Below, in pieces: positions 49,026 to 64,000 of a stretch of DNA of 64,000 bases. Origin of the DNA: an uncultured Lacihabitans sp. Lineage in GTDB: Bacteria; Bacteroidota; Bacteroidia; Cytophagales; Spirosomataceae. Below the pieces are notes generated by a model. It did not search any database. It was not told the DNA's origin and saw nothing but the letters and a program-made list of their open reading frames with translations. Made by a program: the position numbers and the translations under genes. The stretch is from contig CAYRGN010000012.1 in NCBI GenBank assembly GCA_964423865.1, positions 21,198-85,197 on the forward strand, given 5' to 3'. Position 1 is the first letter of the stretch. Each line of letters begins with the position of its first letter.

Positions 49026-51971
49026 TTAAAAGGAAACATTTAATCCGAGGGTGAACGTACGGGTATTCGGATATTTATCGCGGTGGTCAATGCCCGGAGC
49101 GAACGTATAGTCGCCGGTATAGCTCACCCCTTCCGGATCGATGCCTTTATACCCGGTGAATGTCAGAAAGTTCAGTACCGAACCGTACACACGGAGGTTG
49201 GTGATCCCTTTAATTGCCGTAGAGGGGAGCGTATAGCCGAGCGTAACGTTGTCAAGTTTCAGATAATCGCCCTTTTCAATATAATGAGATACATACACGA
49301 GGTCATTTTTAAGCTCTTGTCCATATACCGGATCATAGGCCGTTTTGAGTACGTTATATGCTTTGTTTACGGGGTTCTCGTAATAGAGTCTCTGCATGTT
49401 CAGAATGTCGTGTCCGAAGGCTCCCCGGAAGTTCACCGTCATGTCAAAACGCTGGTAACTCAGGGAGTTGTTCCATCCCAGCAGGAATTTTGGAATACCG
49501 TTGCCATAGAACTGGCGGTCGGTCGGAGTGGCCTGGGCGATGGGAATTACCTCCCCGTTCTGGTTTTCCACCAGCCATTTCCCGCTGTCATCTACGCCAA
49601 CACTCTTCAATACATAGAACTGCCCGATAGGTCCGCCTACATGTACACGGTGGGTACTCACCTGGATGGGTTCTCCGGTATGGCCTGCATCGAAATATTC
49701 GGTGGTGACGTCAAACTGGTCGTTTGAAAGGTTAAGCAGTTTGTTCTTGTTGGTGGAGAACGTCAGGTTGGTGTTCCAGCGGAACGACCCCTTTCTTACA
49801 GCGTCTATGTTCAGCAGGAACTCCAGTCCTGAATTCTCCATAGAACCTGCATTCAGCATCATACTGCTGGTCAGATAAGGCGGAACGGGTACGCTGAAGT
49901 AATAGAGCAGGTCATTTACGGTACGGGTATAATAATCCACCGAACCGGTGATACGGTCTTTCAGGATACCGAAATCCAGACCGATGTTCCATTCGGTTTT
50001 CTTCTCCCACCGCAGGTCAGGGTTGAAGTTCCGGGCCGGGATAAAGCCCGGTACCCATTTCCCGCCGATAAAGGCGCCCTGGCTTTGGGAAAAGTTATAG
50101 CTGATCTGAGACTGGTAGGGCGAGGAGGCGATGGTGCCAGTAACACCTACCCCTGCTCTTAGTTTCAGCTGGGAAAGGGTGTTTCCGGAGCTGAGGAAGT
50201 CTTCTTTTGCGATATTCCATCCCAGTGAAAATGCCGGGAAAGTACCCCATTGATTGTTTTCTCCAAAGGTAGAAGAACCCTCGCGGCGTACACTGGCCAT
50301 CACCATATACTTGTCGTTAAAGATATAGTTTACCCGTGCGAAGAACCCGGCCAGCTGCCATTTGCTTTTGTAGCTTCCCATGGTGGCCAGCCCTCTTTGT
50401 AAAGCGGTACCGGATTCTATCCGGTTATACGAATAGGCGTCAGTAGGGAAGTCAAAGTTGTATACGTTAAATGACTCGCCCGTGTAATCCTGCCAGCTGT
50501 AGCCCCCTAAGAGGGTAAAACGGTGGAGGTCAAAAGTCTTCAGGTAATTGGTAGTCAGCTCCAGGAGGTTTTCCGTGCCGGCGCCCGTAGAGCGGCTTGC
50601 CGTTCCGTTCAGGTTGTTTTTCGTGGTGTTCACATGACGGAAAGTGGTGGAGTTTCCGTAGAGATTATCCGTCTGCACCCGGGAGGCCAGCATTTTGAGG
50701 CTCCAGTCTTTGATGGGCCGGTAATCTACTGAGCCGCTGAAACGGGCTTCCTTACTTTTGTTGTCGTTCACCGTTTCATGGATGATTCCCAGGGGGTTAT
50801 CGTACATGTAGGCATTGCTTTCTTTCCAGGTACCGTCTGCGTTCTGGATAGCGTCTGTCGGGTTCCGGATCATGGCTTGTCTCCAGGCCCATCCGCCCGC
50901 TCCGCCCTGTTTGGATTTGGCGGTAGTATTGATAATCTGGATATTGGTTTTTACTTTTCCGTCAAACATTTCATGGTTAAGATCGGCCCGAAGCGCTACC
51001 CGCTGCTGACCGGTTTTGATCATGATTCCTTCCCAGTCGCGGTAGTTCAATGAAGCGGTGAAGTTGGTTTTGTAGTTTCCTCCAAACAAGGCCACGTTAT
51101 GGTTCTGGCTGACAGGGTTTTGAAGCACCTCATCGATCCAGTTGGTACTTCCGCCCAAGTCTTGATAGGCGTATCCCTGGGAGATCAGGCGGCGGTAGTC
51201 TGAGGCGTCCATCATTTCCGGTTTCCGGAAAATACGTTGCTGGTTGACATACGTATTGTATTCTACGGTAGTTTTGTTCTCGGAATTCTTGTTTTTACGG
51301 GTGGTGATCAGGATCACCCCACCGGTGGCGCGCGTACCGTATATGGCGGCTGCAGAACCGTCTTTGAGCACATCGATAGATTCAATGTCTTCGGGGGCTA
51401 CCGTGGTGATGCTTCCCGGTACACCGTCTACAATCACCAGGGGGTTCTGAGACCCGTTGATAGAATTGAGTCCGCGCAGGTTAATCTGGGTGGTGGCGTT
51501 CGGGTCACCGCTGGGAGTCGTGATCCGGAGACCGGCTACTTTTCCCTGGATCAGCTGGGCCGCGTCGCGCACGGTTCCTTTCAGGAAATCTTCCGACTTT
51601 ATACTGGCTACCGAGCTGGTTATATCTCCTTTTCTCTGGGTACCGTATCCTACTACCACCAGCTCGTCCAGGGAGGAGGTCCCGCCGGTCAGGGTGATGT
51701 CGAGGGTACGTTGGTTGGTTAAGACAATTTCCGTTCTGTCGTAGCCGATAGCGGACACAACCAAAACCGCATTCGCGCCGTAGCGGATGGTAAATTTTCC
51801 CTCCGTGTCCGTATAGGTATGGGTGCTGGAATTTTTAATCCCGACCATCGCAATTTCAATCGGTTTCCCTTCCTCGTCTTTAACGGTACCCGTTAAAGTG
51901 GTTTCCTGTGAAAATGCCATCCAGGGGAGGAGCATTAGGAACAGGAGGCAGGCTGTAAGGTTTTTGTTCAT
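49026..51971 (-). CDS. SusC/RagA TonB-dependent transporter
   Basis: 'VVVGYGTQRK', 'IDVLKDGSAAAIYGTRA.GGVILITT', 'NPDLRWEK', terminal F. Confidence 0.95.
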   Translation of the reverse strand: MNKNLTACLLFLMLLPWMAFSQETTLTGTVKDEEGKPIEIAMVGIKNSSTHTYTDTEGKFTIRYGANAVLVVSAIGYDRTEIVLTNQRTLDITLTGGTSSLDELVVVGYGTQRKGDITSSVASIKSEDFLKGTVRDAAQLIQGKVAGLRITTPSGDPNATTQINLRGLNSINGSQNPLVIVDGVPGSITTVAPEDIESIDVLKDGSAAAIYGTRATGGVILITTRKNKNSENKTTVEYNTYVNQQRIFRKPEMMDASDYRRLISQGYAYQDLGGSTNWIDEVLQNPVSQNHNVALFGGNYKTNFTASLNYRDWEGIMIKTGQQRVALRADLNHEMFDGKVKTNIQIINTTAKSKQGGAGGWAWRQAMIRNPTDAIQNADGTWKESNAYMYDNPLGIIHETVNDNKSKEARFSGSVDYRPIKDWSLKMLASRVQTDNLYGNSTTFRHVNTTKNNLNGTASRSTGAGTENLLELTTNYLKTFDLHRFTLLGGYSWQDYTGESFNVYNFDFPTDAYSYNRIESGTALQRGLATMGSYKSKWQLAGFFARVNYIFNDKYMVMASVRREGSSTFGENNQWGTFPAFSLGWNIAKEDFLSSGNTLSQLKLRAGVGVTGTIASSPYQSQISYNFSQSQGAFIGGKWVPGFIPARNFNPDLRWEKKTEWNIGLDFGILKDRITGSVDYYTRTVNDLLYYFSVPVPPYLTSSMMLNAGSMENSGLEFLLNIDAVRKGSFRWNTNLTFSTNKNKLLNLSNDQFDVTTEYFDAGHTGEPIQVSTHRVHVGGPIGQFYVLKSVGVDDSGKWLVENQNGEVIPIAQATPTDRQFYGNGIPKFLLGWNNSLSYQRFDMTVNFRGAFGHDILNMQRLYYENPVNKAYNVLKTAYDPVYGQELKNDLVYVSHYIEKGDYLKLDNVTLGYTLPSTAIKGITNLRVYGSVLNFLTFTGYKGIDPEGVSYTGDYTFAPGIDHRDKYPNTRTFTLGLNVSF

Positions 51972-52166
51972 AGTAAAAATTTTGAGGTTAATTGATGTTG
52001 AACCTAAATGGTTTGACTGGAACAAATTTCCTTGAAAAAACCGAAGAGTTTTCTGCGCATTTTAACCAATAAATACCAATATTTAACAGAGGCTTAATAT
52101 AGGGAAGTATCTGTTTTATAGCAGGTTAAGATGTGCGTAGTAATGGTTAAAATCCGGTTCTTCCGT

Positions 52167-55100
52167 TTAAGGGGTACTCCATAAACGGATGTTCCGGAAA
52201 GTGCCGAAGCCCAGGACATTGTTATTGGAAGCTTGGAAAAGACCGATCTGCAGGAGCCCCCCGGCAAGTTCGGAATTCACCAGGGGAGAACCGGGTAACT
52301 CCGTCCAGGTGGTGCCGTCACGGCTGGCCCTCAGATAAAACGTGTCTCCGCTCTTCTGGACCTGGAGGAAAGGCAGGTAGTTCCAACCGACCCCGTTATT
52401 TTCCTGTATTCTCCGCCCCTTCCGGGTATCGGTGGTCATGTTACCGATGTTCCAGCCGGTGAGAATGGTGTTCTGAAGGTGATTTTCCGCTTCGGATCTC
52501 GGGTTCCGTATCATAATGCCTGCTTCTGTAGCCGTATTCCGCTGCTCGGAACGCCCTACAATATCGCTGAGTTCAGCAGTAAAAGTGAAGTCGCCTTCCC
52601 GGGCGATAAACAGGAAAGGTCCTGTTTTTCCCTGCCCGCTCCAGGAAGAATGAATGGATTCCAGGCGGATGCCTCCGTTTTCCTGTGCAATACCTGCCCT
52701 GATCGTGTCGGTATTCGCATACACCTCGTGGCCGGTCCAGAATCCGGATTTTTCATCGCGGAGGAGGTCTGTTTTTCCTGCCAGATCGGGAGAACTGAGG
52801 GTCATCTGAGGAAAATGTTCCTGAAAAACGGATTCCTCGCTCACATTCCCGTAGCGGTCTCTCACTTTTACCCGAAAGGCTGCGGACTGGTCGGCTTCCT
52901 GAAAGAAATAATGGGCTGGGGCGATCCATCCGCTGGTATGCTTCCCGTTGGAAAAATAATACTGTCTGCCGGGAGCGGAGGAAGCGGGAGAGGCTACCAG
53001 TACCTGTCCGGGTGTACTTTGGGCTACTTTGATCGGCGGTGGTGCAAGGGTTTCACTTTTTTGCCACAGGGTATGTAAGTCTTGATCTTCGGAAATGATC
53101 CAGCGGCTGACGGCGGTGTGATCCAGTTTTAAGGTGGAAACGGGAAGCGGTTTTCGGCCAGCTATTCCATTGACGGTGTATTCTCCTGAGCCGTGCAGGG
53201 TAACGGTATGCCAGTCCGTATTCCGGTTTTTTTTGTTGAGGATGCCGAGTTTATACAGGTCAGAGCGACGGGAAAGAGGGGAAGCCTGGAAAGTAAGCGC
53301 TGTTTCGGGGTGGTCAAGGAGGTAGTTGAGGGCATCCGGAGGCAATAGCTTCCCGTCCTTCAACAGTACGCTTTGTTTTCCTTTAAAATCCCGGGCCTGT
53401 ACCGTACCGGCCGTTCCGCCGATGCTTCCCCGGTTGGTCCAGGGGGTATCGGAGAGATAGGAGGCGTCTGTAGCGGTGAGATACCAGGCAGGCGCCTTTT
53501 CGGAGGTTTCAGGGGTGAAAATCTCTTCGGCCTCCAGCGCACGGTCATATACTTTCAGGGAAGCGATGGCGCCGGAAAAGAAATTTTCACGGTCAGTACC
53601 CAGAAAGAAATTTTCCCCTGTACGAACAAACAGCATTTTATTGCTTTCCGCGACAAGTTCCTGGTCTACCCAAATTTTTTCCATGTAGCCGTCAAAAGTG
53701 ATGGCTATCCGGTGCCATTTTCCTGCTTCCGGAAGTTTTTTGTAGGGCATATCCGGCCAGGAGCCATGGCTTACGGCACCTCTGTAAGCGTCTGATCCGT
53801 ATCCGAAGCGGGCCAGGGTGAGGTCCTGGCGGCCGGCCGACCACGCGAGAAAAGGCTCATACCGATCAATTTCAGGGTTCAGTACGTCAATGACGATACT
53901 GTAGCTGCTGTTTCCGGAGAGAGAAGCCGGAACTTTAAAGTCGGACAGGAAATGGTTTTTGTCACTGAATACAAAGCATTTTTTACCCTGAATAACATCG
54001 GAGACCACGGGTTGAGAAGACCGGAAACTGCCCTGGAGTTTTCCCCGGTTCCGGATTTCCGTAACGGGTTCGCCCGTCAGGTGATGATGGGCGCTGAGGT
54101 CAATCAGCAGGTCGCCACGCAAGGGCTTTTCCGGGGCATCTTGCGGGGGAGACAGGTAAAATTCCTCCGTTAACTTTTCCTGATATACTTTCACATTCCA
54201 GATTCCTTTGGGCAATCCGGGCATTTGGGTGTCGAACAGATGAAGCCGGATATACCGCATTTTTGCCTGTCCGAAGTCGGCCAGCGGGCTTCCCCATTGC
54301 CTGTTATTCCGTTTGTCGGCGTAGGTTTTCCAGGATTGGCCGTCTTCTGAATATTCAATGAGATATTCGTAGTACCAGGTGGCGTATTCAAACTGGGTAA
54401 GAACGGTGTTCACCGTATGCGATGCGCCCAGGTCAATCTGAAGCCAGGCGGGGCTTCTGTTGTCTTTGGCTCTCCAGAGGGTGCCGTTATTGTCATCGGC
54501 GGCGAAAGAGGCGCGAAAGTCCGGACTGTATTCGGAAGAAGCCATCACCGGTTTCCCCAGGGCCAGGTTGGTGTAGGGACGTGCATTTTCGGCCAGGAAG
54601 CCTATGCCTTCGTGTGTGGGCGCTACCTGGACGATATCGCCTTTGTCATCAAATATCATTTTATCTGCCGCTAACTGGCGATGAAACCCGCCACCGGAAT
54701 GGGGGTTGTTGTGACGGTGGTAGACAATGTAATATTCATTGTTTTCCTGGATAATGCTGTGGTGACCCGGACCGTGTATAGTTCCGTCTTCGCTGGTGAC
54801 CAGTATGGGGTTATGTTCCGGGTATTCGTAGGGACCGAAAGGACCTGTTTCGCTTTTGACATACTGCACCCGGTAGGTATGGTCTTCGCACCGCCCGGAA
54901 GAATACATCAGGTAGTAAATTCCGTTTCGTTTGAACATGAAGGGAGCTTCAAAGAAGTCTTTTGCCACGGTATTGGGAATAAGCTCCACCCGGGAAAAAG
55001 TTTTCATATCCTGATTCAGCAAGCCTACCGCACATCCGTGGTCGGGGTAGATGCCCCATGTACCCCAGAACATGTAGATAGAACCGTCATCGTTGGTAAA

Positions 55101-55553
55101 GGTCTGGGCATCAAGGGTAATCACCCCGGGAATCATGTAGTTGGGAATGATGGAGGTGCTGTCGGGGTTGAGTGGTATCCATGGGCCGGTGGGTTGATCT
55201 GAGGCAGCGGCAAAAATCTCCACCGGCTGGCTGTAGTACAGGTAGTAGCGCCCGTCGTACCCCCGGGTCATATCGGGCGCCCAATACCAGTGAGTATCGG
55301 GCCAGTTCATGGGTTTAAGCGACCAGTGGACAAAATCTTTGGAGATCCAGACCTGGGAAGGCCCCGCACCCCAGCCGTTTCCATCCGTAGTGGCGAAAAG
55401 ATAATACGTATCTCCGATCTTTTTTACTGCCGGGTCCGCGAAGTAGCCCGGCACCAGGGGGTTAAAGAGTCCCGGCTGTTGGTAAGGACTTAATTTCTGG
55501 GCGAAAGCCGCCGCAGATACACACCACAGGAAGATCAGGATCGCTCGGTTCAT
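52167..55553 (-). CDS. Multimodular GH43 glycoside hydrolase (GH43 + F5/8-type C + LamG-like + C-terminal lectin-like)
   Basis: 'FADP', 'WAPD', 'LDAQTF', 'FEAP', 'GPGHHS'; 'AADDNNGTLW..WLQIDLG'. Confidence 0.85.
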   Translation of the reverse strand: MNRAILIFLWCVSAAAFAQKLSPYQQPGLFNPLVPGYFADPAVKKIGDTYYLFATTDGNGWGAGPSQVWISKDFVHWSLKPMNWPDTHWYWAPDMTRGYDGRYYLYYSQPVEIFAAASDQPTGPWIPLNPDSTSIIPNYMIPGVITLDAQTFTNDDGSIYMFWGTWGIYPDHGCAVGLLNQDMKTFSRVELIPNTVAKDFFEAPFMFKRNGIYYLMYSSGRCEDHTYRVQYVKSETGPFGPYEYPEHNPILVTSEDGTIHGPGHHSIIQENNEYYIVYHRHNNPHSGGGFHRQLAADKMIFDDKGDIVQVAPTHEGIGFLAENARPYTNLALGKPVMASSEYSPDFRASFAADDNNGTLWRAKDNRSPAWLQIDLGASHTVNTVLTQFEYATWYYEYLIEYSEDGQSWKTYADKRNNRQWGSPLADFGQAKMRYIRLHLFDTQMPGLPKGIWNVKVYQEKLTEEFYLSPPQDAPEKPLRGDLLIDLSAHHHLTGEPVTEIRNRGKLQGSFRSSQPVVSDVIQGKKCFVFSDKNHFLSDFKVPASLSGNSSYSIVIDVLNPEIDRYEPFLAWSAGRQDLTLARFGYGSDAYRGAVSHGSWPDMPYKKLPEAGKWHRIAITFDGYMEKIWVDQELVAESNKMLFVRTGENFFLGTDRENFFSGAIASLKVYDRALEAEEIFTPETSEKAPAWYLTATDASYLSDTPWTNRGSIGGTAGTVQARDFKGKQSVLLKDGKLLPPDALNYLLDHPETALTFQASPLSRRSDLYKLGILNKKNRNTDWHTVTLHGSGEYTVNGIAGRKPLPVSTLKLDHTAVSRWIISEDQDLHTLWQKSETLAPPPIKVAQSTPGQVLVASPASSAPGRQYYFSNGKHTSGWIAPAHYFFQEADQSAAFRVKVRDRYGNVSEESVFQEHFPQMTLSSPDLAGKTDLLRDEKSGFWTGHEVYANTDTIRAGIAQENGGIRLESIHSSWSGQGKTGPFLFIAREGDFTFTAELSDIVGRSEQRNTATEAGIMIRNPRSEAENHLQNTILTGWNIGNMTTDTRKGRRIQENNGVGWNYLPFLQVQKSGDTFYLRASRDGTTWTELPGSPLVNSELAGGLLQIGLFQASNNNVLGFGTFRNIRLWSTP

Positions 55554-55704
55554 CGGAAAAAATTTACGGATACAAAGATAAGCGTACCGTGATACACCGA
55601 TGGGCATGTTTTAACCTTTACCGCAAGGATTTTATCCATTTGACCCCGACACCGCATTGGGGTATGAACACGGCTTTCCATACGGCAGTCTTGCCGAAAT
55701 GCCG

Positions 55705-56571
55705 TCACGACACATTTTTGATATACCGGTTAAGGTAATCTTTGGGGGAGGTGCCCGCCACACTTTTGAAGACCCGGTTAAAATTGGCGATACTGTTAAA
55801 TCCGCAGCTATACGCTACGCCGGAAATATTGTCAAAGCTTCCGCTGGTGAGGCTCCTGCACGCTTCCGTTACCCGAAGTTCATTCAGGAAGGTGACAAAA
55901 GTAACTCCCGTATGCTTTTTGAAATAGCGGCAAAACGCCTGGGGCGTGAGATGGGCCGCCGCGGCCACGTCATCAAGCGTCAGGGGATTCTTGTAGTTTT
56001 TCAGTACATAGTTGTAAATCTTGCTCATCCTAAGTCCTTCACCCTCCGATATGGCTTCATTACTCAGGGACGCCAGTTGGCCCGGGCGGGGTTCCATTTT
56101 ACAGAAGGCCCGCAACAAATGAAGAAAATGGAGAATCTGGTCGGTATGCGCCGCTTTCTGAATTTTGACCATTCTTTTGGCAATAAAGGAAGCGTGGTTT
56201 TCCGGCACCTTAAAACCGCCCCGGTATTCTTTCAGGAAGGTGTGAAACGGACGGAGTTCCGGCAAGTTTAACAAGGCATTCAAAGACCCGTCCGGATCGT
56301 AAAAGACGGAAAGAGAATGCACCTCTCCCGGTTCATCGGCCGACTCTCCACGGAAAACGTGGGACTGCTGGGGCGCGATCAGGAAAATATCATTGCTGGA
56401 AAAATCGTGGAAGTGATTGTCTACAATCAGGGTGCCGCGGCCTTGGATAATCCAAATAAGCTGGGCTTCTTTATGACGATGAAGATAAGGATAAAACTGG
56501 GGAATTTTATCCTCCTGTACCAGAACAGACTTGTCGGGGGTGACCGGGATGGTAAACTGTAAAGGTTTCAT
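55705..56571 (-). CDS. AraC family transcriptional regulator
   Basis: Cupin 'YLHRHKEAQL'; HTH 'AFCRYFKKHTG', 'CGFNSIANFNRVFK'. Confidence 0.92.
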   Translation of the reverse strand: MKPLQFTIPVTPDKSVLVQEDKIPQFYPYLHRHKEAQLIWIIQGRGTLIVDNHFHDFSSNDIFLIAPQQSHVFRGESADEPGEVHSLSVFYDPDGSLNALLNLPELRPFHTFLKEYRGGFKVPENHASFIAKRMVKIQKAAHTDQILHFLHLLRAFCKMEPRPGQLASLSNEAISEGEGLRMSKIYNYVLKNYKNPLTLDDVAAAAHLTPQAFCRYFKKHTGVTFVTFLNELRVTEACRSLTSGSFDNISGVAYSCGFNSIANFNRVFKSVAGTSPKDYLNRYIKNVS

Positions 56572-56761
56572 AATATCACTTAGGTTCGGTTGAATCATTA
56601 AATAAAACTAGCGAATATTAACGTCTGATCCAAATTTCGACACCTTATTAGTTAATTTTTGCGCATGAAATGTTAAGAATATTGGTTAAATTCAATCGAA
56701 TCGTGTAAAATTTACGCAAATCGACTTATGCCAAATATAATTCGGTGGTTTTGCTACAGGT

Positions 56762-56803
56762 CAAAAACAGAAGCGTGTCATAAGGGGAAACGCCTCTGTT
56801 TTG
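56762..56803 (-). terminator. Intrinsic terminator after deoD
   Basis: Minus strand CAGAGGCGT-loop-ACGCTTCTG-TTTTT. Confidence 0.65.
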
Positions 56804-56809
56804 TGCCGG

Positions 56810-57511
56810 TTATGCTATACCGAGGGCGATCTCCATCATTTCGTTAAAAGTCTTTTCCCTTTCTTCCTGGCTGGAAGCCGAACCCGTCAGGATGTTATCG
56901 CTCACCGTCAGGAGGGAAAGCGCGTTTACGCGGAAACGACATGCCATGGTGTACAGGATTTCGGTTTCCATATCAATGCCAAGTATGCCGTGTTTTTTCC
57001 AAACGTCCCAGCGGTTGGGTTCCAGGTCGTAGAAAGTATTGGTACTGAAAACCGTGCCGGGATGTACGCGGATATCCAGTTTGCGGGCAATCTCGTAGGC
57101 CTTCACCAGCAGTTCGAAACTGGGTGTAGGGGCAAAGTGTTGGTTCTTAAAGAGTACCGTGTTGGCGTCGGAGTCGCCCGAGGCGCCTGTGACCAGCAAT
57201 ACCTGGCCCAGGTCGAGGTCTTCCTGTATGGAGCCGCACGTGCCTACACGGATCAGGTTCCGGCATTGGTAGGTATTGATCAGTTCATGAATGTAGATAC
57301 CTGCGCTGCCCATACCCATGCCGGTGCCCTGTATGGAAACGCGCTGTCCTTTGTACAGTCCCGTAAATCCGAACATATTCCTGACTTTGTTGTAACAGAC
57401 CACGTCGGTCAGGTAGTTTTCGGCTACGAATTTCGCTCGTAGAGGATCTCCGGGCAGGAGTACGGTTTCGGCGATGTCGCCTACGTGGGCTTCTAAATGT
57501 ATGCTTCTCAT
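56810..57511 (-). CDS. deoD: Purine nucleoside phosphorylase (DeoD type)
   Basis: 'LLPGDPLRAKF', 'VRNMFGFTG', 'GTGMG', 'RVGTCG', 'DMET'. Confidence 0.95.
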   Translation of the reverse strand: MRSIHLEAHVGDIAETVLLPGDPLRAKFVAENYLTDVVCYNKVRNMFGFTGLYKGQRVSIQGTGMGMGSAGIYIHELINTYQCRNLIRVGTCGSIQEDLDLGQVLLVTGASGDSDANTVLFKNQHFAPTPSFELLVKAYEIARKLDIRVHPGTVFSTNTFYDLEPNRWDVWKKHGILGIDMETEILYTMACRFRVNALSLLTVSDNILTGSASSQEEREKTFNEMMEIALGIA

Positions 57512-57542
57512 GTATTTTGTTTTTAGGCTAAAAGCCGGGTTT

Positions 57543-59900
57543 TTATGCGCCGTAAGGAATCCAGATGTTTTTTACTTCACACGCCTTTTTCAGGAATTCT
57601 TTTTCCAGGGGATTGCCCAGCCAGTCGTAGTGCTTTCCGTAGCTTACCCAGGAACGTTTCATGGAATCGGTGGATAACGATTCCACGTTTTTACTGCCCT
57701 CTGCCGAACCGAAATACCAGATGCCTTCCACGTCGTAGTGCCGGGCCAGTTCGCTGCTCAACACTTCCCGCGGCCCTGTAATGATATTGACGGTTCCTCC
57801 GGGTACATCGGAAGTATCCAGCACCTGGTAAAAGTCGGTAGCGGAAAGCGGGGCAGTTTCCGAGGGGATCACGACCACATTGTTCCCCATGGCAATGGCG
57901 GGAAGTACCGCGCCAATAAAACTCAGGAGAGGGAATTCTTCCGGACAAACAATGCCCATTACGCCCAAAGGTTCATTCATGGCCAGGGTAATATTCCGGG
58001 AAACCGTAGAATGCACCTGCCCGTCGTATTTATCAGCATAGGCCGCATAAGTGAATATCCGTTCTACAGACTGGCTTACTTCGAGCGCTGCATCTTTGGA
58101 ATTATATCCGCAGGCTTCCATGAGCCTTTCCTCAAACTCTTTCCTTCGGGCAGACAGGTTTTCCGCCATATAGTAGAGTACCTGTGCGCGGGCGTGGCCG
58201 GTGTTTTCGGCCCATTTTGCATTGGCGCGGGCGGCTTCCACGGCATTGCGGATATCTTTCCGGGAACCTTCTCCTACTTCTCCAACCACCACTCCAGCCG
58301 GGTTTTTCACCAGGAGGCTATACCCGTTGTCGGGCCGGGCCTGTTTGCCGCCAATATACATTTTGGGCGTACGGTCCAGCTCCGGTTTTGGCGATTTTCC
58401 TCCTCCCGATACTTTGAAGCCGAAACTCTTTTCTCCGAAGGCCTTGTCGTTGCGGGGTTTCACATATTCCATGAGTCCTTCGCGTCCGCCTTCCCGCCCG
58501 AAGCCGGACTCGCGGTAACCTCCGAAGCCGGACGAAGCATCAAACACATTGGTGGTATTGATCCAGACGGTACCCGCTTTTATTTTCGGGGCTACATCCA
58601 GGGCCAGGTTGATGTTCTCGGTCCAAAGGCTGGCGGCCAGTCCGTACCGGGTATGATTGGCCAGTTTAACGGCTTCCTGGTGGCTGCGGAAGGTCATGGC
58701 TACCAATACGGGGCCAAAGATCTCTTCCCGCGCAATCAGGGAGGCGGGCGATACATTCAGAAACAGGGTAGGGGGGAAGAAGCACCCGGAAGGTACTTGT
58801 TCCAGCTGCCAGATTTCATTGCCTTCGTTTTTGCCCTTCTCCACAAAAGAGATAATGGTGTTCAGTTGTTCCGGACTGACGATAGCCCCCATGTCTATGC
58901 CTTTGTCGAGGGAGTTCCCCACTACCAGTTTTTGGAGCCGTACTTTTAATTTGTCGTAGAATTTTTCAGCGATACTCTCCTGCACCAGTAAGCGCGAACC
59001 GGCGCAGCAAACTTGTCCCTGGTTAAACCAGATGGCGTCTACCACACCCTCTACTGCCGAATCGAGGTCGGCATCTTCGAAGACGATGAAGGGAGATTTT
59101 CCGCCCAGTTCGAGGGAGAGTTTTTTGCCCGATCCCGCGGTGCTTTTCCGGATAATTTTGCCTACTTCCGTAGAGCCGGTAAAAGCTATTTTCTGTATTC
59201 CGGGATGGTTAACGAGGGCTTCTCCTACGCTTCCGTGTCCGGTGACGATATTGACTACTCCTTTGGGCAGGCCGATGCTCCGGCAGATTTCCCCGAACAG
59301 GAGGGCCGTCAGGGAAGTTTGCTCGGCGGGCTTCAATACCAGGGTGTTTCCCATGGCCAGGGCGGGCGCTATTTTCCAGGAAAGCATCAGGAGGGGGAAA
59401 TTCCAGGGAATGATTTGTCCGACCACTCCGATTTCCCTGTACTCTTTTAATTCGGTATCCATCAGCTGGGCCCAGCCGGCGTGATGGTAGAAATGGCGGG
59501 CCACCAGGGGGATGTCGATATCCCGGGTTTCCCGAATGGCTTTTCCGTTATCGAGCGATTCGAGTACGGCAAAGAGGCGGGCATGTTTCTGTACCTGCCG
59601 CGCCAGGGCGTAAAGGTATTTGGCCCTTTCGTGGCCGCCGGCTTCGGCCCAGTCGGGCAAGGCCTTTTGTGCCGCCTTTACGGCCGCGTCTACGTCTTCC
59701 GGCGTAGCCTCGGTGATTTGAGCCAGTACTTTTCCGGTGGCGGGACTATAGGAGGGAAAGGTATTTTCCGCAGCTGTCCATTTACCGTTGATATACAAAC
59801 CGAAGGCTCCCTGAAACGTGTCCAGAAACTCCATGGCATGTTTGTCGCTTTCAGGTGCCGGACCGTATTCCATAGTGTCAAATATTTCTTTAACAGTCAT
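57543..59900 (-). CDS. Aldehyde dehydrogenase, ALDH16-type (full ALDH + truncated second ALDH unit)
   Basis: 785 aa; first unit has FTGS, ELGGKS, GQVCCAG, EEIFGP; second unit from 'PKMYIGG' lacks the catalytic domain. Confidence 0.85.
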   Translation of the reverse strand: MTVKEIFDTMEYGPAPESDKHAMEFLDTFQGAFGLYINGKWTAAENTFPSYSPATGKVLAQITEATPEDVDAAVKAAQKALPDWAEAGGHERAKYLYALARQVQKHARLFAVLESLDNGKAIRETRDIDIPLVARHFYHHAGWAQLMDTELKEYREIGVVGQIIPWNFPLLMLSWKIAPALAMGNTLVLKPAEQTSLTALLFGEICRSIGLPKGVVNIVTGHGSVGEALVNHPGIQKIAFTGSTEVGKIIRKSTAGSGKKLSLELGGKSPFIVFEDADLDSAVEGVVDAIWFNQGQVCCAGSRLLVQESIAEKFYDKLKVRLQKLVVGNSLDKGIDMGAIVSPEQLNTIISFVEKGKNEGNEIWQLEQVPSGCFFPPTLFLNVSPASLIAREEIFGPVLVAMTFRSHQEAVKLANHTRYGLAASLWTENINLALDVAPKIKAGTVWINTTNVFDASSGFGGYRESGFGREGGREGLMEYVKPRNDKAFGEKSFGFKVSGGGKSPKPELDRTPKMYIGGKQARPDNGYSLLVKNPAGVVVGEVGEGSRKDIRNAVEAARANAKWAENTGHARAQVLYYMAENLSARRKEFEERLMEACGYNSKDAALEVSQSVERIFTYAAYADKYDGQVHSTVSRNITLAMNEPLGVMGIVCPEEFPLLSFIGAVLPAIAMGNNVVVIPSETAPLSATDFYQVLDTSDVPGGTVNIITGPREVLSSELARHYDVEGIWYFGSAEGSKNVESLSTDSMKRSWVSYGKHYDWLGNPLEKEFLKKACEVKNIWIPYGA

Positions 59901-59918
59901 TTTATGATAGATTAGAAG

Positions 59919-60872
59919 TTAGGCCATAGGGTGGCGGTGGGCGGCCGAATAGCTGCCGGTGACGTAATGTTCCAGCTGGCGTTCGATGTCGCCCAACAGG
60001 CTGCTCGCCCCGAAGCGGAACAGGCGATTGTTCAGCCATTCGTTCCCCAGCTCTTCTTTGATCAGAATCAGGAAATCAAGGGCCTGTTTGGCCTTTTGAA
60101 TACCGCCCGCGGGCTTATACCCTATGCGGATACCGGTAAGGTCGTAATACGCGCGGATGGCCCGTACCATCACCAGGCTCACGGGCAGCGTGGCGTTGAC
60201 CGCTTCCTTGCCGGTGCTGGTCTTAATGAAATCGGAGCCGGCCATCATGCTCACCCAGGAAGCTTTGGCCACTTTGGTAAGGATGGGGATCTCTCCTGTA
60301 GCCAGAATGGTCTTCATGTGGGCTTCTCCGCAGGCTTCGCGACAAAGTTTTACTTCGTGATACAGTTCTCCCCATTGGTTATTGATCACCAGCTCCCGGC
60401 TGATCACAATATCAATTTCCGTAGCGCCGGCTTCTACTGACCGCCGGATTTCGTCGAGTTTCTGTTCCAGGGAAATTTTGCCGGCAGGGAAGCCGGTGGA
60501 TACCGCGGCTATGGGCAGTCCGCTGTTGCCCAACGCTTTTCTGGCGTCGGCAATCATGTTGTGGTAAACGCAAACGGCCCCTACGGTGAGGGCAGGAAAC
60601 CCGAGGGCCTCCAGGAGGTCAGTGCGTACGGGATTCAGCGCTTTGGCACAGAGGCGCTGCACGTTTCCCGCGGTGTCGTCTCCGGCCAGGGTGGTCAGGT
60701 CAATACAGGAGACCGCGCGAAGCAACCAGGCGGCCTGATGTTCTTTTTTAACGGTGCGACGGCCCGGGAGTGTGGCCGCTCTGCGTTCTACGGCAGAACG
60801 GTTAATGTTCAGATGATCAAAATATTCCGGTCGGTAAGGAAGTCCTCCGTTCCGGCTTTCACTTGCGTTCAT
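59919..60872 (-). CDS. deoC: Deoxyribose-phosphate aldolase (long, eukaryote-like type)
   Basis: 'IDLTTL', 'EIDIVI', 'KTILATG', 'DFIKTSTGK', 'KPAGG', 'RFGAS'. Confidence 0.95.
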   Translation of the reverse strand: MNASESRNGGLPYRPEYFDHLNINRSAVERRAATLPGRRTVKKEHQAAWLLRAVSCIDLTTLAGDDTAGNVQRLCAKALNPVRTDLLEALGFPALTVGAVCVYHNMIADARKALGNSGLPIAAVSTGFPAGKISLEQKLDEIRRSVEAGATEIDIVISRELVINNQWGELYHEVKLCREACGEAHMKTILATGEIPILTKVAKASWVSMMAGSDFIKTSTGKEAVNATLPVSLVMVRAIRAYYDLTGIRIGYKPAGGIQKAKQALDFLILIKEELGNEWLNNRLFRFGASSLLGDIERQLEHYVTGSYSAAHRHPMA

Positions 60873-61091
60873 AAGCGGAAACTATTGAAATAAACGGTAA
60901 GAAAGATAATTCTTTCGGAATCCACAAAAAAACGGACCAAAATTAGTTTTCCTAATGGGTGAAAGAACCCGTGTATAAAGGAAACATGACGTTCCATACA
61001 GCGTAAATGACCGGATAATAAAAATATACAGACGTACTTGTTTGTTCACGGAAATCTTGTTTTTTTTGCAGAAAATAAAATAATATTTCTT

Positions 61092-61616
61092 ATGAAAAAG
61101 ATTATCTCATCACTGCTTTTTTCGGTTTTGGTTTTATGCGGACTAAGTGTTTCCGCACAGTTTGAGAAGGGTGATAAATTATTGAATGCAGGTATTAACC
61201 TGGGAGGTACTTACGGCGGTGGCGTAGGTGTCGGCGGTTCTTTTGAGGTTGGAGTACATGACTTCATCAGCGTAGGTGGCCAGGCTGACTTTGTGAACTG
61301 GAATAATAGCTGGGGTGGCTATGGGTGGAAATATAACTTCTTCACTATTGCGGCAAGAGGTTCCTACCACTTCGGTAAGCATTTTCTGACTATAGATAAC
61401 CTGGATTTGTACGGGGGACCGTCTTTGGGTTACATAGTAGCTAACTACAAGGATCCCAGTGGCTGGTCAGGAACGTATATAGACAACTACGGTAGCGGAG
61501 TCTTTTTTGGTATTTTTGCCGGAGCAAGGTATTACTTCAAGCCTACCATGGGTGTATTTGCGGAAGTGGGCCACAATGCTTCTCCGTTAAAAGCCGGGAT
61601 TACCTTTAAATTGTAA
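61092..61616 (+). CDS. Small outer-membrane beta-barrel protein
   Basis: Signal peptide; alternating Gly/aromatic strands; terminal 'AGITFKL'. Confidence 0.8.
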   Translation: MKKIISSLLFSVLVLCGLSVSAQFEKGDKLLNAGINLGGTYGGGVGVGGSFEVGVHDFISVGGQADFVNWNNSWGGYGWKYNFFTIAARGSYHFGKHFLTIDNLDLYGGPSLGYIVANYKDPSGWSGTYIDNYGSGVFFGIFAGARYYFKPTMGVFAEVGHNASPLKAGITFKL

Positions 61617-61637
61617 ACTGTAGTTTTCTTCACAGGA

Positions 61638-61757
61638 TCTGTGTCGATCTGCGATATCTGTGAGAGGAAGAAACATTTTCAGCTCACAGATACCGCAGAT
61701 TTACATGGGTTTTTTTGTACGGGAGAGATGTCATTTCAGCACACAGATACCACAGAT
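61638..61757. repeat. REP-like ATCTGTG/CACAGAT repeats (inverted pair plus third copy)
   Basis: ATCTGCGATATCTGTGAG (61647-64) vs CTCACAGATACCGCAGAT (61683-700); third copy 61742-57. Confidence 0.75.
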
Positions 61758-62920
61758 TTTATAAGGGCGAGGTAGCTTTTCCCCGCCGTAGCGTAGTCCA
61801 CCTCCAGGTAGTCGGCCACCGTAGCGGCAATGTCCGCGAAACTTTCTCTTATTCCGGTATTCGCTCCTTTCCTGATTTTCTGTCCTATATGCAATAAGGG
61901 AATATATTCCCGGGTATGATCTGTGCCGGGGGCTGTAGGGTCGTTGCCGTGGTCGGCGGTAATGATCAGCAGGTCTTCTTCCTTCAGATTTTCCAGGATT
62001 TCGGGTAGGTAGGAGTCGAACTCTTCCAACGCTTTGGCATAACCGATTACATCCCGGCGGTGTCCGTACTCCATATCAAAATCTACCAGGTTGGTGAAGA
62101 TCAGGGCTTCGGGGGCCGACTTAATCGCTTCGATGGTGTCCAGTATGCCCTCCTTGTTGTTCTTGGTTTTTTTGTAGCGGGTGATCCCTTTTTCGGCGAA
62201 GATATCGATGATCTTACCGATGGAATATACACCCTTTCCGCTATTGGAAACCGCGTCAAGTACAGTTTCTGGGGGGATGGTAGCGTAATCCTTTCGGTTT
62301 TTTGTACGGTAATATTCCCCGGAAGATCCGAGGAAGGGCCGTGCGATGACCCGTCCCACTTCCAGGTTACCGGTGAGCATTTCCCGGGCAATGCGGCATA
62401 TTTCGTATTGTTTTTCCAAAGGAATTATCTCTTCGTGCATGGCCACCTGGAATACGCTGTCGGCGGAAGTATATACAATGGGATACCCGGTACGGACGTG
62501 TTCGTCGCCGAGTTCATGGATGATGGCTGTACCGGAAGCCGACACATTCCCGATGGTTTTGGTGCCAATGGCATTTTCAAAAGCAGAGAGGAACTCCCTA
62601 GGAAATCCGGTTTCGGTATAAGTGGGGAAGGGTTTGTCGAGTATCACACCGGATATCTCCCAATGGCCTGTAGTGGTATCTTTCCCGGCCGAACGTTCGG
62701 CAGCCTTCCCGATCGCCGCCTGAGGGGAATCGGTTTTCTCCAGCGCGTTTTCCGGTACAATATTTCCTAAGCCCAATGCCGTGAGGTGGGGCAAGTACAG
62801 ATCAGGATAGTTTAAGGCAATGTTTTCCAGGGTGTTGGCGCCGGTATCCCCGTAAAGGTGCGCATCCGGTAATTCGCCGATTCCCACCGAATCAAGAACA
62901 ATTAAAATTACGCGTTTCAT
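61736..62920 (-). CDS. deoB: Phosphopentomutase
   Basis: 'LIVLDSVGIG', 'GKDTTTGHWE', 'YTSADSV', 'NLVDFD', 'TADHGNDP', 'DHTREY'. Confidence 0.95.
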   Translation of the reverse strand: MKRVILIVLDSVGIGELPDAHLYGDTGANTLENIALNYPDLYLPHLTALGLGNIVPENALEKTDSPQAAIGKAAERSAGKDTTTGHWEISGVILDKPFPTYTETGFPREFLSAFENAIGTKTIGNVSASGTAIIHELGDEHVRTGYPIVYTSADSVFQVAMHEEIIPLEKQYEICRIAREMLTGNLEVGRVIARPFLGSSGEYYRTKNRKDYATIPPETVLDAVSNSGKGVYSIGKIIDIFAEKGITRYKKTKNNKEGILDTIEAIKSAPEALIFTNLVDFDMEYGHRRDVIGYAKALEEFDSYLPEILENLKEEDLLIITADHGNDPTAPGTDHTREYIPLLHIGQKIRKGANTGIRESFADIAATVADYLEVDYATAGKSYLALIKSVVSVC

Positions 62921-62932
62921 ATTTTATATAGT

Positions 62933-62988
62933 TTAGCTGTGAGCCATGAGCTATGAGCTGTGAGCTGTGAGCCATGAGCAATGAGCTT
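62933..62988. repeat. Heptamer tract (TGAGCYR-type) about x8
   Basis: Read directly from the sequence. Confidence 0.9.
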
Positions 62989-63143
62989 TTTGTGGTCGAA
63001 AGGTTTGGTGTAACCTTTTCTAAAAGAGGTTCACTGCCCGGCTCAAAGCTGATTCCTGTTTTCACGGATGTTAAATTACAACATTCTTTTACACGGGCCT
63101 AAAAATAATGGCTTACTTTTGTACACAAATTTATTGCTATATA

Positions 63144-63179
63144 ACAGCTGAAAGCTCATGGCTCAAAGCTCACAGCTCA
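63144..63179. repeat. Heptamer tract (AGCTCA-type) x5
   Basis: Read directly from the sequence. Confidence 0.85.
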
Positions 63180-63191
63180 AAATTATACCCA

Positions 63192-63530
63192 ATGAAATAC
63201 CTACTTTATTTTTTTATCGTCATCTACGTGCTGTCCGCGGCCGTACAATACAATGATCCCGATCCTTTGGTCTGGATACTTTCTTATCTTATTCCGGCGG
63301 CGTTGTGCTATTACCGTTCCTTAGGAAAAGGCGATCGCCTTTTGTATTTCAGTATCGGTTTTGTGTATCTTCTATGGGCGGTGAACCAGTTTCCACCCCA
63401 GTGGGAAGGACTGATGATCGAACATCTGAGCATGAAGACGATGAACGTGGAGTTGGCGCGGGAGTCGCTGGGTTTAGGCCTTTGTACTTTGGGGATGTGG
63501 GTGTGTGGTTCTCGACTACGCTCGAACTGA
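63192..63530 (+). CDS. TMEM220-like membrane protein
   Basis: 'AVQYNDPDPLVW', 'ELARESLGL'. Confidence 0.78.
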   Translation: MKYLLYFFIVIYVLSAAVQYNDPDPLVWILSYLIPAALCYYRSLGKGDRLLYFSIGFVYLLWAVNQFPPQWEGLMIEHLSMKTMNVELARESLGLGLCTLGMWVCGSRLRSN

Positions 63531-63620
63531 CATCTCAACTACGCTCGAACTGACATCTCGACTACGCTCGAACTGATTGACAATGGCCGTTGCTACTTGT
63601 CACATCGAGCGTAGTCGAGA
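63510..63620. repeat. REP-like 23-mer: three tandem copies plus one inverted copy
   Basis: TCTCGACTACGCTCGAACTGACA at 63510, 63533, 63556; inverted copy at 63598-63620. Confidence 0.92.
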
Positions 63621-63636
63621 TGTATATAATTCAAAA

Positions 63637-64000
63637 TTACCGTGACAAATACAAATTCCTCTCCCCGTATACCTTCAGGAAGAAATCATCGGTCAGATCA
63701 TCGATAAAATAGATGCCTTCTCCGGTTGATTTCATTTCAGGCCCCAGCTGCTTGTTGACATTCGGGAATTTATTGAAGGAGAATACCGGGATCTTGATGG
63801 CGTAACCGTGCTTCACGGGCTTGAAGATAAAGTCAGTTACTTTGTTGACGCCCAGCATCACTTTGGTAGCGTAATTTACGTACGGTTCCTGGTAAGCCTT
63901 ACAGATAAACGGTACGGTCCGGGAAGCCCGCGGGTTGGCTTCAATGACATAGACGATCTCGTCTTTGATGGCAAACTGGATGTTGATCAGTCCCTGGGTA
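63637..64000 (-). CDS. carB: Carbamoyl-phosphate synthase large subunit, C-terminal part (5' end outside window)
   Basis: 'NIQFAIK..VIEANPRASRTVPF', 'VFSFNKFP..LGPEMKSTGE'. Confidence 0.92.
   Translation of the reverse strand, partial: TQGLINIQFAIKDEIVYVIEANPRASRTVPFICKAYQEPYVNYATKVMLGVNKVTDFIFKPVKHGYAIKIPVFSFNKFPNVNKQLGPEMKSTGEGIYFIDDLTDDFFLKVYGERNLYLSR

What the first reader, a model, noticed from the sequence alone, without database searches (positions are those of the whole stretch)
56810..60872. Eukaryote-type DERA operonically coupled to an ALDH16-type dehydrogenase and DeoD
Seen: deoC (317 aa, with the N-terminal 'RRTVKKEHQAAWLL' extension that I recognise from animal DERA) lies 18 nt upstream of a 785-aa ALDH with an active first unit and a truncated second unit, followed by deoD. 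Established: DERA releases acetaldehyde, and the ALDH16 family has this 1.5-unit architecture with an unclear physiological role (human ALDH16A1 is a pseudoenzyme). Inference: ALDH16 oxidises, and perhaps channels, DERA-derived acetaldehyde. This would give a genomic-context function for ALDH16 and predict a conserved DERA-ALDH16 complex.
Basis: partly seen in the sequence, partly recalled or inferred. Interest (0 to 1): 0.65.

Follow-up and report, generated by a model that had tools for sequence, protein, structure and literature searches.

The report
Deoxyribose aldolase paired with ALDH16 dehydrogenase
A bacterial operon places the animal-like long form of deoxyribose-phosphate aldolase directly before an active ALDH16 aldehyde dehydrogenase, and the two genes occur together across phyla (sometimes fused into one protein), which gives the orphan, gout-linked ALDH16 family a testable job: removing the acetaldehyde released when DNA sugar is broken down.

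Summary
On the minus strand lie deoC (59919-60872), an 18-nt spacer, a 785-aa ALDH (57543-59900), a 31-nt spacer and deoD (56810-57511). deoB lies upstream, behind an opposite-strand gene. The ALDH matches the Loktanella ALDH16 structure 6MVR end to end (E 1e-288). It also matches animal ALDH16A1 end to end and keeps Asn167, Glu264 and Cys298. The DERA is 59% identical to a bird DERA, including the N-terminal extension.

The linkage is not sporadic. The long DERA sits directly upstream in 71 of 78 informative ALDH16 loci from at least seven phyla, and the other seven genomes carry it elsewhere. In samples of Bacteroidota (301 genomes) and Alphaproteobacteria (201), exactly the same genomes hold both genes: 75/75 and 15/15. 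In Chloroflexota (151) the figure is 54 of 57.

Natural DERA-ALDH16 fusion proteins exist, and one gives a compact AlphaFold2 model (pTM 0.86). A two-gene "split" ALDH16 follows DERA in many genomes.

Best reading: ALDH16 is the dedicated acetaldehyde-oxidising partner of long-form DERA. A physical complex and channelling are plausible but unproven. I found no paper making this link. This scan has found the same pairing before on other DNA.

The parts
59919..60872 (-). deoC: long-form deoxyribose-phosphate aldolase (DERA), 317 aa. Catalytic Asp154, Lys187, Lys217 (Schiff base) and Lys253 are present. So is Cys101, the counterpart of E. coli Cys47. Residues 17-50 are the class-specific N-terminal extension.
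   Evidence: TIGR00126 137.3 bits (cut-off 117.3). Alignment to E. coli DERA structures 5EKY/1JCL. Residues. 59% identity to bird DERA including the extension.
59901..59918 (-). 18-nt spacer between the deoC stop and the ALDH16 start
   Evidence: Sequence read. The estimated median spacer in 71 related loci is 21 nt.
58431..59900 (-). ALDH16 unit 1 (residues 1-490): complete catalytic aldehyde dehydrogenase with Asn167, Glu264 and Cys298
   Evidence: Pfam Aldedh 41-482, E 1.7e-201. Alignment to 6MVR. Residues.
57543..58400 (-). ALDH16 C-terminal non-catalytic Rossmann-like domain (residues 501-785) plus the stop codon
   Evidence: It matches only Aldedh profile positions 10-235 and aligns with residues 501-767 of 6MVR. 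Free-standing homologues exist in other genomes.
56810..57511 (-). deoD: purine-nucleoside phosphorylase, 233 aa, 31 nt after ALDH16
   Evidence: NF004489 321.5 bits (cut-off 230) and TIGR00107 280 bits. The spacer was read.
61736..62920 (-). deoB: phosphopentomutase, 394 aa. Same pathway but a separate transcription unit, because an opposite-strand gene lies between it and deoC.
   Evidence: NF003766 531.6 bits (cut-off 256). Intervening + strand ORF.
60938..60945 (-). TAATTTTG, a match to the Bacteroidota-type -7 promoter motif TAnnTTTG, about 66 nt upstream of the deoC start. This is a candidate promoter for deoC-ALDH16-deoD.
   Evidence: There is no other minus-strand match until 56732-56739, upstream of the AraC gene. 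The motif is only weakly enriched in the window (55 found, 41 expected), so this is soft evidence. The motif consensus comes from my own knowledge.

Best explanation
The window carries a deoC-ALDH16-deoD operon from a Bacteroidota genome, with deoB nearby. The proposed pathway runs as follows. Purine deoxynucleosides are phosphorolysed by DeoD. Deoxyribose-1-phosphate is isomerised by DeoB. Long-form DERA cleaves deoxyribose-5-phosphate into glyceraldehyde-3-phosphate and acetaldehyde. The catalytically intact ALDH16 then oxidises the acetaldehyde to acetate with NAD(P)+. This removes a toxic product that can also inactivate DERA. Long-form DERA and ALDH16 form an evolutionarily obligate two-protein module. 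The module is probably a physical complex, in which the conserved DERA N-terminal extension and/or the ALDH16 C-terminal domain may provide the docking surface. What is shown: the gene identities, the intact catalytic residues, the adjacency, the shared phyletic pattern, the natural fusions and the split form. What is inferred: the substrate (acetaldehyde), the complex, and any channelling.
For: Identity. The ALDH matches ALDH16 structure 6MVR over 1-785, E 1e-288, and animal ALDH16A1 end to end. Asn167, Glu264 and Cys298 are present. DERA, DeoD and DeoB pass curated equivalog cut-offs.

Linkage. Long DERA lies directly upstream on the same strand in 71 of 78 informative loci of fused ALDH16. 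These come from Bacteroidota, Gemmatimonadota, Chloroflexota, Alpha-, Beta- and Gammaproteobacteria, Myxococcota, SAR324 and Verrucomicrobiota. The estimated median spacer is 21 nt. All 7 genomes without adjacency carry the long DERA elsewhere.

Co-presence in both directions. In the window's genus, 16 of 22 relatives have both genes and 6 have neither. In 301 Bacteroidota, 75 have both and none has only one. In 201 Alphaproteobacteria, 15 have both and none has only one. In 151 Chloroflexota, 54 have both and 3 are exceptions, two of them at contig edges. Co-presence persists where the genes are unlinked. Other DERA classes (about 220 aa, and E. coli-like) never co-occurred with ALDH16 in these samples.

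Fusions. DERA-ALDH16 single proteins exist. One clade is confirmed in independent assemblies with conserved synteny. The linker is only about 12-15 residues. The AF2 model of fusion P0278 has mean pLDDT 89 and pTM 0.86, with an ordered linker and extension.

Context. The only other recurrent neighbours are DeoA (17 loci), DeoD (about 20), DeoB (about 12) and UPRT (4).

Inheritance as a unit. Pairwise identities of DERA and ALDH16 correlate at r = 0.81, with 0 of 2000 Mantel permutations as high.

Rationale. Acetaldehyde-derived crotonaldehyde cross-links Lys167 and Cys47 of E. coli DERA (PMC6244999). The equivalent Cys101 is at least 90% conserved in 85 ALDH16-associated DERAs.

Activity. Bacterial ALDH16 is reported active on aliphatic aldehydes (PMC12041015).
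Against: No biochemical evidence here shows that ALDH16 prefers acetaldehyde. The only activity I could cite second-hand is with medium-chain aldehydes such as hexanal, and the primary paper was not readable. Adjacency, co-presence and fusion show functional coupling, not the substrate. pTM is a global score; no PAE or coordinates were available, so the DERA-ALDH16 interface is not verified. Two of the apparently independent fusions (P0279, P0293) rest on single short contigs and have long branches. Related genomes are not independent samples. No transcript data could be obtained. Animal ALDH16A1 lacks the catalytic residues, so catalysis cannot be the conserved role across the whole family.
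Confidence: 0.7

Rival explanations
1. ALDH16 is coupled to DERA but acts on a different aldehyde of the pathway. Candidates are glyceraldehyde-3-phosphate (a non-phosphorylating GapN-like role) or the open-chain form of deoxyribose(-5-phosphate).
For: DERA releases two aldehydes, and genomic coupling cannot tell them apart. ALDH16 substrate preference in vivo is unknown.
Against: The best-scoring curated families for unit 1 are aminobutyraldehyde, betaine-aldehyde, phenylacetaldehyde and acetaldehyde (ExaC) dehydrogenases. No GapN-type family appears among the top 25. The review describes an aromatic box lining the pocket and activity on hydrophobic aliphatic aldehydes, which does not suit a phosphorylated sugar.
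Confidence: 0.1
2. The conserved role of ALDH16 is structural or regulatory: a scaffold, stabiliser or allosteric partner of long-form DERA. The dehydrogenase activity of the bacterial forms is secondary.
For: All animal ALDH16A1 proteins examined (snail, Limulus, tick, thrips, fish, monotremes) lack the Asn and Cys equivalents, yet the family is retained, while animal DERA stays 59% identical to the bacterial one. The non-catalytic C-domain is conserved even as a separate gene.
Against: Bacterial fused, split and DERA-fused forms all keep Asn, Lys, Glu and Cys. This indicates selection for catalysis in bacteria.
Confidence: 0.12
3. The adjacency is incidental: a generic detoxifying ALDH that hitch-hikes with deoC through horizontal transfer, without a specific functional tie.
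For: The ALDH16 tree does not follow the species tree (for example SAR324 among Bacteroidota, and Verrucomicrobiota next to Gemmatimonadota). The pair therefore moves horizontally as a block.
Against: Co-presence persists when the genes are unlinked. The two genes are lost together within one genus. Fusions recur. ALDH16 was never found without the long DERA in the two cleanest samples.
Confidence: 0.03

Closest known systems
Loktanella sp. ALDH16 (PDB 6MVR/6MVS/6MVT/6MVU; Liu & Tanner 2019, as cited in PMC12041015 and PMC8160307)
   Same: End-to-end homology (E 1e-288). It has the same catalytic unit plus non-catalytic C-terminal Rossmann-like domain and the same catalytic triad (Asn165/Glu261/Cys295 there, Asn167/Glu264/Cys298 here).
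   Different: The reviews I could read describe its structure, dimer and activity on aldehydes such as hexanal. They give no physiological pathway or gene context. Here the gene sits between deoC and deoD.
Vertebrate/animal ALDH16A1 (pseudoenzyme; gout-associated variant; proposed partners HPRT1, maspardin, thioredoxin)
   Same: Same family and two-module architecture. Identity is 34-49% end to end. Animals also carry the same long-form DERA.
   Different: The animal proteins examined lack the catalytic Asn and Cys (reviews). The window's protein keeps them. No DERA link is stated in the papers searched.
E. coli deoCABD operon (deoxynucleoside catabolism)
   Same: DeoC, DeoB and DeoD perform the same steps. 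DERA's catalytic Asp and Lys residues and Cys47 are conserved.
   Different: E. coli DeoC is the 259-aa form without the N-terminal extension (the alignment starts at residue 49). By my own knowledge the E. coli operon has no aldehyde dehydrogenase. Here no DeoA was found in the genome, and ALDH16 sits between deoC and deoD.
DmpG/DmpF and BphI/BphJ aldolase-acetaldehyde dehydrogenase complexes (acetaldehyde channelling; own knowledge; an aldolase/aldehyde dehydrogenase of Pseudomonas is listed in PMC12041015)
   Same: An aldolase that releases acetaldehyde is genetically and physically coupled to a dehydrogenase that consumes it. This is a precedent for channelling a volatile, toxic aldehyde.
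   Different: Those systems use a metal-dependent class II aldolase and a CoA-acylating dehydrogenase of the GapDH-like superfamily, and yield acetyl-CoA. Here a class I Schiff-base aldolase is paired with a non-acylating ALDH-superfamily enzyme that would yield acetate. No complex has been demonstrated.

Membership tests
ALDH16 (CDD cd07111) | Full-length homology to a structurally characterised ALDH16 | tested here: met
   6MVR_A E 1.1e-288, query 1-785 against chain 2-767. The next best PDB ALDH reaches only E 1e-116 and covers unit 1 alone.
ALDH16 (CDD cd07111) | Catalytic ALDH unit followed by an extra C-terminal Rossmann-like domain without a catalytic half | tested here: met
   Pfam Aldedh matches in two stretches. 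Residues 501-785 match only profile positions 10-235 of 461.
ALDH16 (CDD cd07111) | Orthology-level similarity to animal ALDH16A1 | tested here: met
   Representatives matched over query 2-784 are named ALDH16A1 or ALDH16A1-like in Limulus, Ornithodoros, Ornithorhynchus and cichlids. A Lymnaea protein named only 'aldehyde dehydrogenase domain-containing protein' matches equally. Identity is 34-49%.
ALDH16, active bacterial subgroup | Catalytic Asn, Glu and Cys present | tested here: met
   Asn167, Glu264 and Cys298 in the motifs PWNFP, ELGGKS and QVCCAGS.
ALDH16 | Dimer that mimics the classical ALDH tetramer through the C-terminal domain | not testable with these tools
   Only monomer AF2 without coordinates was available.
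Acetaldehyde dehydrogenase (functional class) | Efficient NAD(P)+-dependent oxidation of acetaldehyde | not testable with these tools
   No assay was possible. The score against the curated ExaC model is far below its cut-off (481 against 900 bits), so it is not a member of that equivalog.
Deoxyribose-phosphate aldolase (TIGR00126, class I aldolase) | Passes the equivalog cut-off and keeps the Schiff-base Lys and the proton-relay Asp and Lys | tested here: met
   137.3 bits against a cut-off of 117.3. Asp154, Lys217 and Lys253 align with E. coli Asp102, Lys167 and Lys201.
Long-form (animal-type) DERA subfamily | Conserved N-terminal extension of about 35 residues before the barrel, shared with animal DERA | tested here: met
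   59% identity to the DERA part of a Turdus model from residue 17. Residues 17-50 are as conserved as the barrel across 85 sequences.
DeoD-type purine nucleoside phosphorylase | Passes curated cut-offs | tested here: met
   NF004489 321.5 against 230 bits; TIGR00107 280.3 against 232.25 bits.
Aldolase-dehydrogenase channelling complex (DmpFG-like) | Stable physical complex with an internal tunnel for acetaldehyde | not testable with these tools
   Only indirect support: natural fusions with a 12-15-residue linker and pTM 0.86 for one fusion.

The most novel reading that the evidence does not exclude
ALDH16 in all its forms is an obligate physical partner of long-form DERA. In bacteria the two would form a channelling complex that converts deoxyribose-5-phosphate to G3P plus acetate without releasing acetaldehyde. 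Docking would use the DERA N-terminal extension and/or the ALDH16 C-domain. In animals the pseudoenzyme ALDH16A1 would keep only the DERA-binding role and regulate or stabilise DERA. That would tie the gout- and urate-associated ALDH16A1 variant to deoxynucleoside and purine catabolism.
Probability: 0.25. Interest if true: 0.85.

Novelty: new variant of a known kind. Interest (0 to 1): 0.6.

Why it matters
ALDH16 is an orphan family. The bacterial enzyme has a structure but, in the reviews I could read, no stated pathway. The human member is a pseudoenzyme linked to gout and serum urate, and its mechanism is unknown. A near-obligate pairing with long-form DERA, the same DERA subfamily that animals carry, gives the family a concrete and easily testable role in deoxynucleoside breakdown. 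It also points to DERA as a candidate partner of human ALDH16A1. In addition, it suggests a natural way round the acetaldehyde sensitivity that limits DERA as a biocatalyst, through co-expression or fusion with ALDH16.

Tried and rejected
- **Primary paper.** Liu & Tanner 2019 could not be read. The substrate data therefore come second-hand from reviews.
- **Human DERA-ALDH16A1 interaction.** Full-text searches returned only omics lists. The supplement of the ALDH16A1 IP-MS paper is not held. The held hu.MAP 2.0 supplements contain no ALDH16A1 entry. A BioPlex search gave nothing usable. The Aldh16a1-null mouse paper is not held.
- **Sigma-70 promoter and terminator scan.** Counts were at or below chance and uninformative for a Bacteroidota genome.
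- **Rfam on 54000-64000.** It gave only a weak sub-threshold hairpin hit and no riboswitch.
- **An 'Artemia franciscana' DeoC+ALDH protein (P0282) as a eukaryotic fusion.** Rejected. It is 69% and 63% identical to the bacterial proteins, keeps the active Cys and lacks 136 residues of the ALDH, so it is probably bacterial contamination or a chimeric model.
- **AraC gene as regulator of the deo genes.** Considered and set aside, because GH43 and SusC-like genes follow it.
- **Names for the split-form proteins.** Exact look-up returned no names.


Full report
**What is in the window**

The minus strand carries four genes of one pathway:
- deoB (61736-62920), phosphopentomutase, NF003766 at 532 bits.
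- deoC (59919-60872), 317 aa, TIGR00126 at 137.3 bits against a cut-off of 117.3.
- An ALDH of 785 aa (57543-59900).
- deoD (56810-57511), NF004489 at 321.5 bits against a cut-off of 230.

The spacers are 18 nt (deoC to ALDH) and 31 nt (ALDH to deoD). A + strand gene (61092-61616) separates deoB from deoC. It encodes a signal-peptide, glycine-rich, OMP-like protein with no Pfam hit. deoB is therefore a separate transcription unit.

A Bacteroidota-type -7 motif (TAATTTTG, 60938-60945) lies about 66 nt upstream of deoC. No further minus-strand copy occurs until just upstream of the AraC gene. This is soft evidence for one deoC-ALDH-deoD transcript. The AraC gene (55705-56598) is followed by a GH43 hydrolase and a SusC-like receptor, and probably belongs to that locus. 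The window is G000:C12 of a 3.59-Mb, 95%-complete genome. The nearest protein relatives are Saprospiraceae-like Bacteroidota.

**The ALDH is a true ALDH16**

- It aligns over residues 1-785 with Loktanella ALDH16 (PDB 6MVR), E 1.1e-288. Ordinary ALDHs match only unit 1, at E 1e-116 or weaker.
- Residues 501-785 match only the cofactor-domain half of the Pfam model.
- Asn167, Glu264 and Cys298 are in place.
- In a search of 1.84 billion representatives, full-length matches include proteins that NCBI names ALDH16A1 or ALDH16A1-like in Limulus, a tick, cichlid fish and platypus. A Lymnaea (snail) protein with a generic ALDH-domain name matches equally. Identity is 34-49%.
- All animal members examined lack the Asn and Cys equivalents. 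The bacterial forms keep Asn, Lys, Glu and Cys. This agrees with the reviews that call human ALDH16A1 a pseudoenzyme.

**The DERA is the long form shared with animals**

E. coli-type DERA structures align only from residue 49. The DERA part of a bird gene model is 59% identical from residue 17 to the C-terminus. Across 85 ALDH16-associated DERAs, residues 17-50 are as conserved as the barrel: mean top-residue frequency 0.67 against 0.69-0.78. Asp154, Lys217 and Lys253 correspond to E. coli Asp102, Lys167 and Lys201.

**Is the linkage conserved?**

*Conditioning on ALDH16.* Eighty loci of fused ALDH16 were fetched with 10-kb flanks. They come from Bacteroidota, Gemmatimonadota, Chloroflexota, Alpha-, Beta- and Gammaproteobacteria, Myxococcota, SAR324 and Verrucomicrobiota.
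- Two loci are cut at the contig end. In 71 of the other 78, the long DERA (59-76% identity) lies immediately upstream on the same strand.
- The estimated median spacer is 21 nt.
- All seven genomes without adjacency hold the long DERA elsewhere.

*Conditioning on neither gene.*

| Sample | Genomes | Both genes | Only one gene |
|---|---|---|---|
| Relatives in the window's genus | 22 | 16 (always adjacent) | 0 (6 have neither) |
| Bacteroidota, drawn evenly | 301 | 75 | 0 of 226 others |
| Alphaproteobacteria | 201 | 15 | 0 of 186 others |
| Chloroflexota | 151 | 54 | 3 |

- Four of the six genus relatives that lack both genes are at least 97% complete.
- In Bacteroidota, 71 pairs sit within 1.5-3.2 kb on one strand, one pair is 8.8 kb apart, and three genomes of one genus have the genes on different contigs.
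- Two of the three Chloroflexota exceptions lie at contig edges. Several Chloroflexota genomes have the two genes on different contigs or 7-8 kb apart, so co-presence outlasts adjacency.
- Short (about 220 aa) and E. coli-like DERAs never co-occurred with ALDH16 in these samples.
- Related genomes are not independent, so these are counts, not statistics.

**Fusions and fissions**

*DERA-ALDH16 fusion proteins.* Single proteins of 1082-1184 aa exist. One clade (P0127, P0276, P0277, P0278) is solid:
- P0278 is found in an NCBI Rhodospirillales MAG and in an independent Logan assembly.
- P0277 is found in a JGI metagenome.
- Both sit in the same CobT-HisRS-x-fusion-x-SufE-ClpX neighbourhood, with no other deo genes nearby.
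- The linker between the DERA C-terminus and the ALDH16 N-terminus is only about 12-15 residues.

An AF2 model of P0278, built on a 52-row alignment, has mean pLDDT 89.1 and pTM 0.86 over 1164 residues. The linker and the N-terminal extension are ordered. That fits a compact assembly. Without PAE or coordinates, however, the interface is not verified. P0279 and P0293 may be independent fusions, but each rests on one short contig and has a long branch.

*Split ALDH16.* In most Bacteroidota carriers sampled, and in part of the Chloroflexota, ALDH16 is split into two genes. The operon reads:
- DERA, about 300 aa.
- An ALDH of about 495 aa, 50-55% identical to unit 1.
- A C-domain protein of about 290-320 aa, 34-39% identical to the C-domain.

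The genes are tightly spaced or overlapping. The free-standing C-domain protein matches residues 501-764 of 6MVR (E 2e-51) far better than unit 1 (E 2e-15). On a tree of unit 1, the split forms are one clade (SH-aLRT 100) nested among fused forms. The root is uncertain because the outgroup branch is very long.

**Context and inheritance**

Apart from DERA, the only recurrent neighbours of fused ALDH16 are pyrimidine-nucleoside phosphorylase (17 loci), DeoD (about 20), DeoB (about 12) and UPRT (4). All are nucleoside catabolism or salvage genes. In many phyla the DERA-ALDH16 pair stands alone. Pairwise identities of DERA and ALDH16 correlate at r = 0.81, with 0 of 2000 Mantel permutations as high. 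The ALDH16 tree departs from the species tree. The pair therefore appears to be inherited and transferred as a unit. The window's genome has no detectable DeoA, so here the operon most likely serves purine deoxynucleosides.

**Mechanism**

The best-supported reading is the pathway DeoD, DeoB, DERA, ALDH16, with ALDH16 oxidising DERA-derived acetaldehyde to acetate.
- *Shown:* gene identities, intact catalytic residues, adjacency, shared phyletic pattern, fusions and the split form.
- *Inferred:* the substrate. The curated families closest to unit 1 act on small or hydrophobic aldehydes, including acetaldehyde (ExaC), not on GapN-type substrates. A review reports that Loktanella ALDH16 has an aromatic box and is active on aliphatic aldehydes such as hexanal.
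- *A further rationale:* E. coli DERA is inactivated when acetaldehyde-derived crotonaldehyde bridges Lys167 and Cys47 (PMC6244999). The equivalent Cys101 is at least 90% conserved in ALDH16-associated DERAs. A dedicated acetaldehyde sink would therefore protect the aldolase.
- *Still open:* a physical complex and channelling. They are plausible given the fusions, the short linker, the high pTM and the conserved class-specific extension, but they are unproven.

**Comparison with what is known, and novelty**

The genes are members of known families. What is new is the association.
- Full-text searches for ALDH16 or ALDH16A1 together with deoxyribose or DERA returned only omics lists.
- The reviews read give no pathway context for ALDH16.
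- I could not read the primary structure paper.
- I could not check interaction databases, so prior implicit knowledge (for example neighbourhood links in STRING) cannot be excluded.

This scan has already found and followed up the same pairing, the fusions and the split form on other genomes. My tests here were run independently and agree. This window is a typical, intact member of a widespread arrangement.

Noticed in passing
L092:5357-8656 and L093-L101, L104, L105 (other Bacteroidota genomes); G650:C161, G695:C65, G641:C35 (Chloroflexota): A split ALDH16. A catalytic ALDH of about 495 aa and a separate protein of about 290-320 aa, homologous to the ALDH16 C-terminal domain, are encoded right after DERA. 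On a tree of unit 1 the split forms are one clade nested among fused forms.
   Followed up: yes
L089:6001-9495, L090:1562-5056, L091:6001-9393: Natural single-gene DERA-ALDH16 fusions (1130-1164 aa) in Rhodospirillales-like genomes. They sit in a conserved CobT-HisRS-x-fusion-x-SufE-ClpX neighbourhood, away from any other deo gene.
   Followed up: yes
window 61092-61616 (+): A 174-aa ORF lies between deoB and deoC on the opposite strand. It has a signal-peptide-like N-terminus and a glycine- and aromatic-rich sequence resembling a small outer-membrane beta-barrel. It has no Pfam or NCBIfam match.
   Followed up: partly
window 61641-61706 (-): A hairpin lies about 30 nt downstream of the deoB stop. 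It gave only a weak sub-threshold Rfam hit (mir-2009, 29.5 bits against a gathering score of 90) and is probably a terminator-like stem, not an RNA gene.
   Followed up: no
window 49026-56598 (-): An AraC-family regulator is followed by an 1146-aa GH43/F5_F8 type C/laminin-G protein and a SusC-like TonB-dependent receptor. This is a polysaccharide-utilisation-type locus directly downstream of the deo genes.
   Followed up: partly
window 63108-63530 (+): A 140-aa protein matches Pfam TMEM220 (E 1.2e-23), a family named after a eukaryotic membrane protein.
   Followed up: no
protein P0282 (nr, labelled Artemia franciscana): This DeoC+ALDH gene model is 69% and 63% identical to the window's DERA and ALDH16, has an intact catalytic Cys and lacks about 136 residues of the ALDH. 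It looks like bacterial contamination or a chimeric model in a eukaryotic assembly.
   Followed up: partly
G053:C8 / G053:C60, G080, G259 (one Bacteroidota genus): The stand-alone C-domain gene and the long DERA lie on different contigs. No ALDH unit-1 gene was seen within 11 kb of the C-domain gene. This is an exception to the usual three-gene operon.
   Followed up: partly
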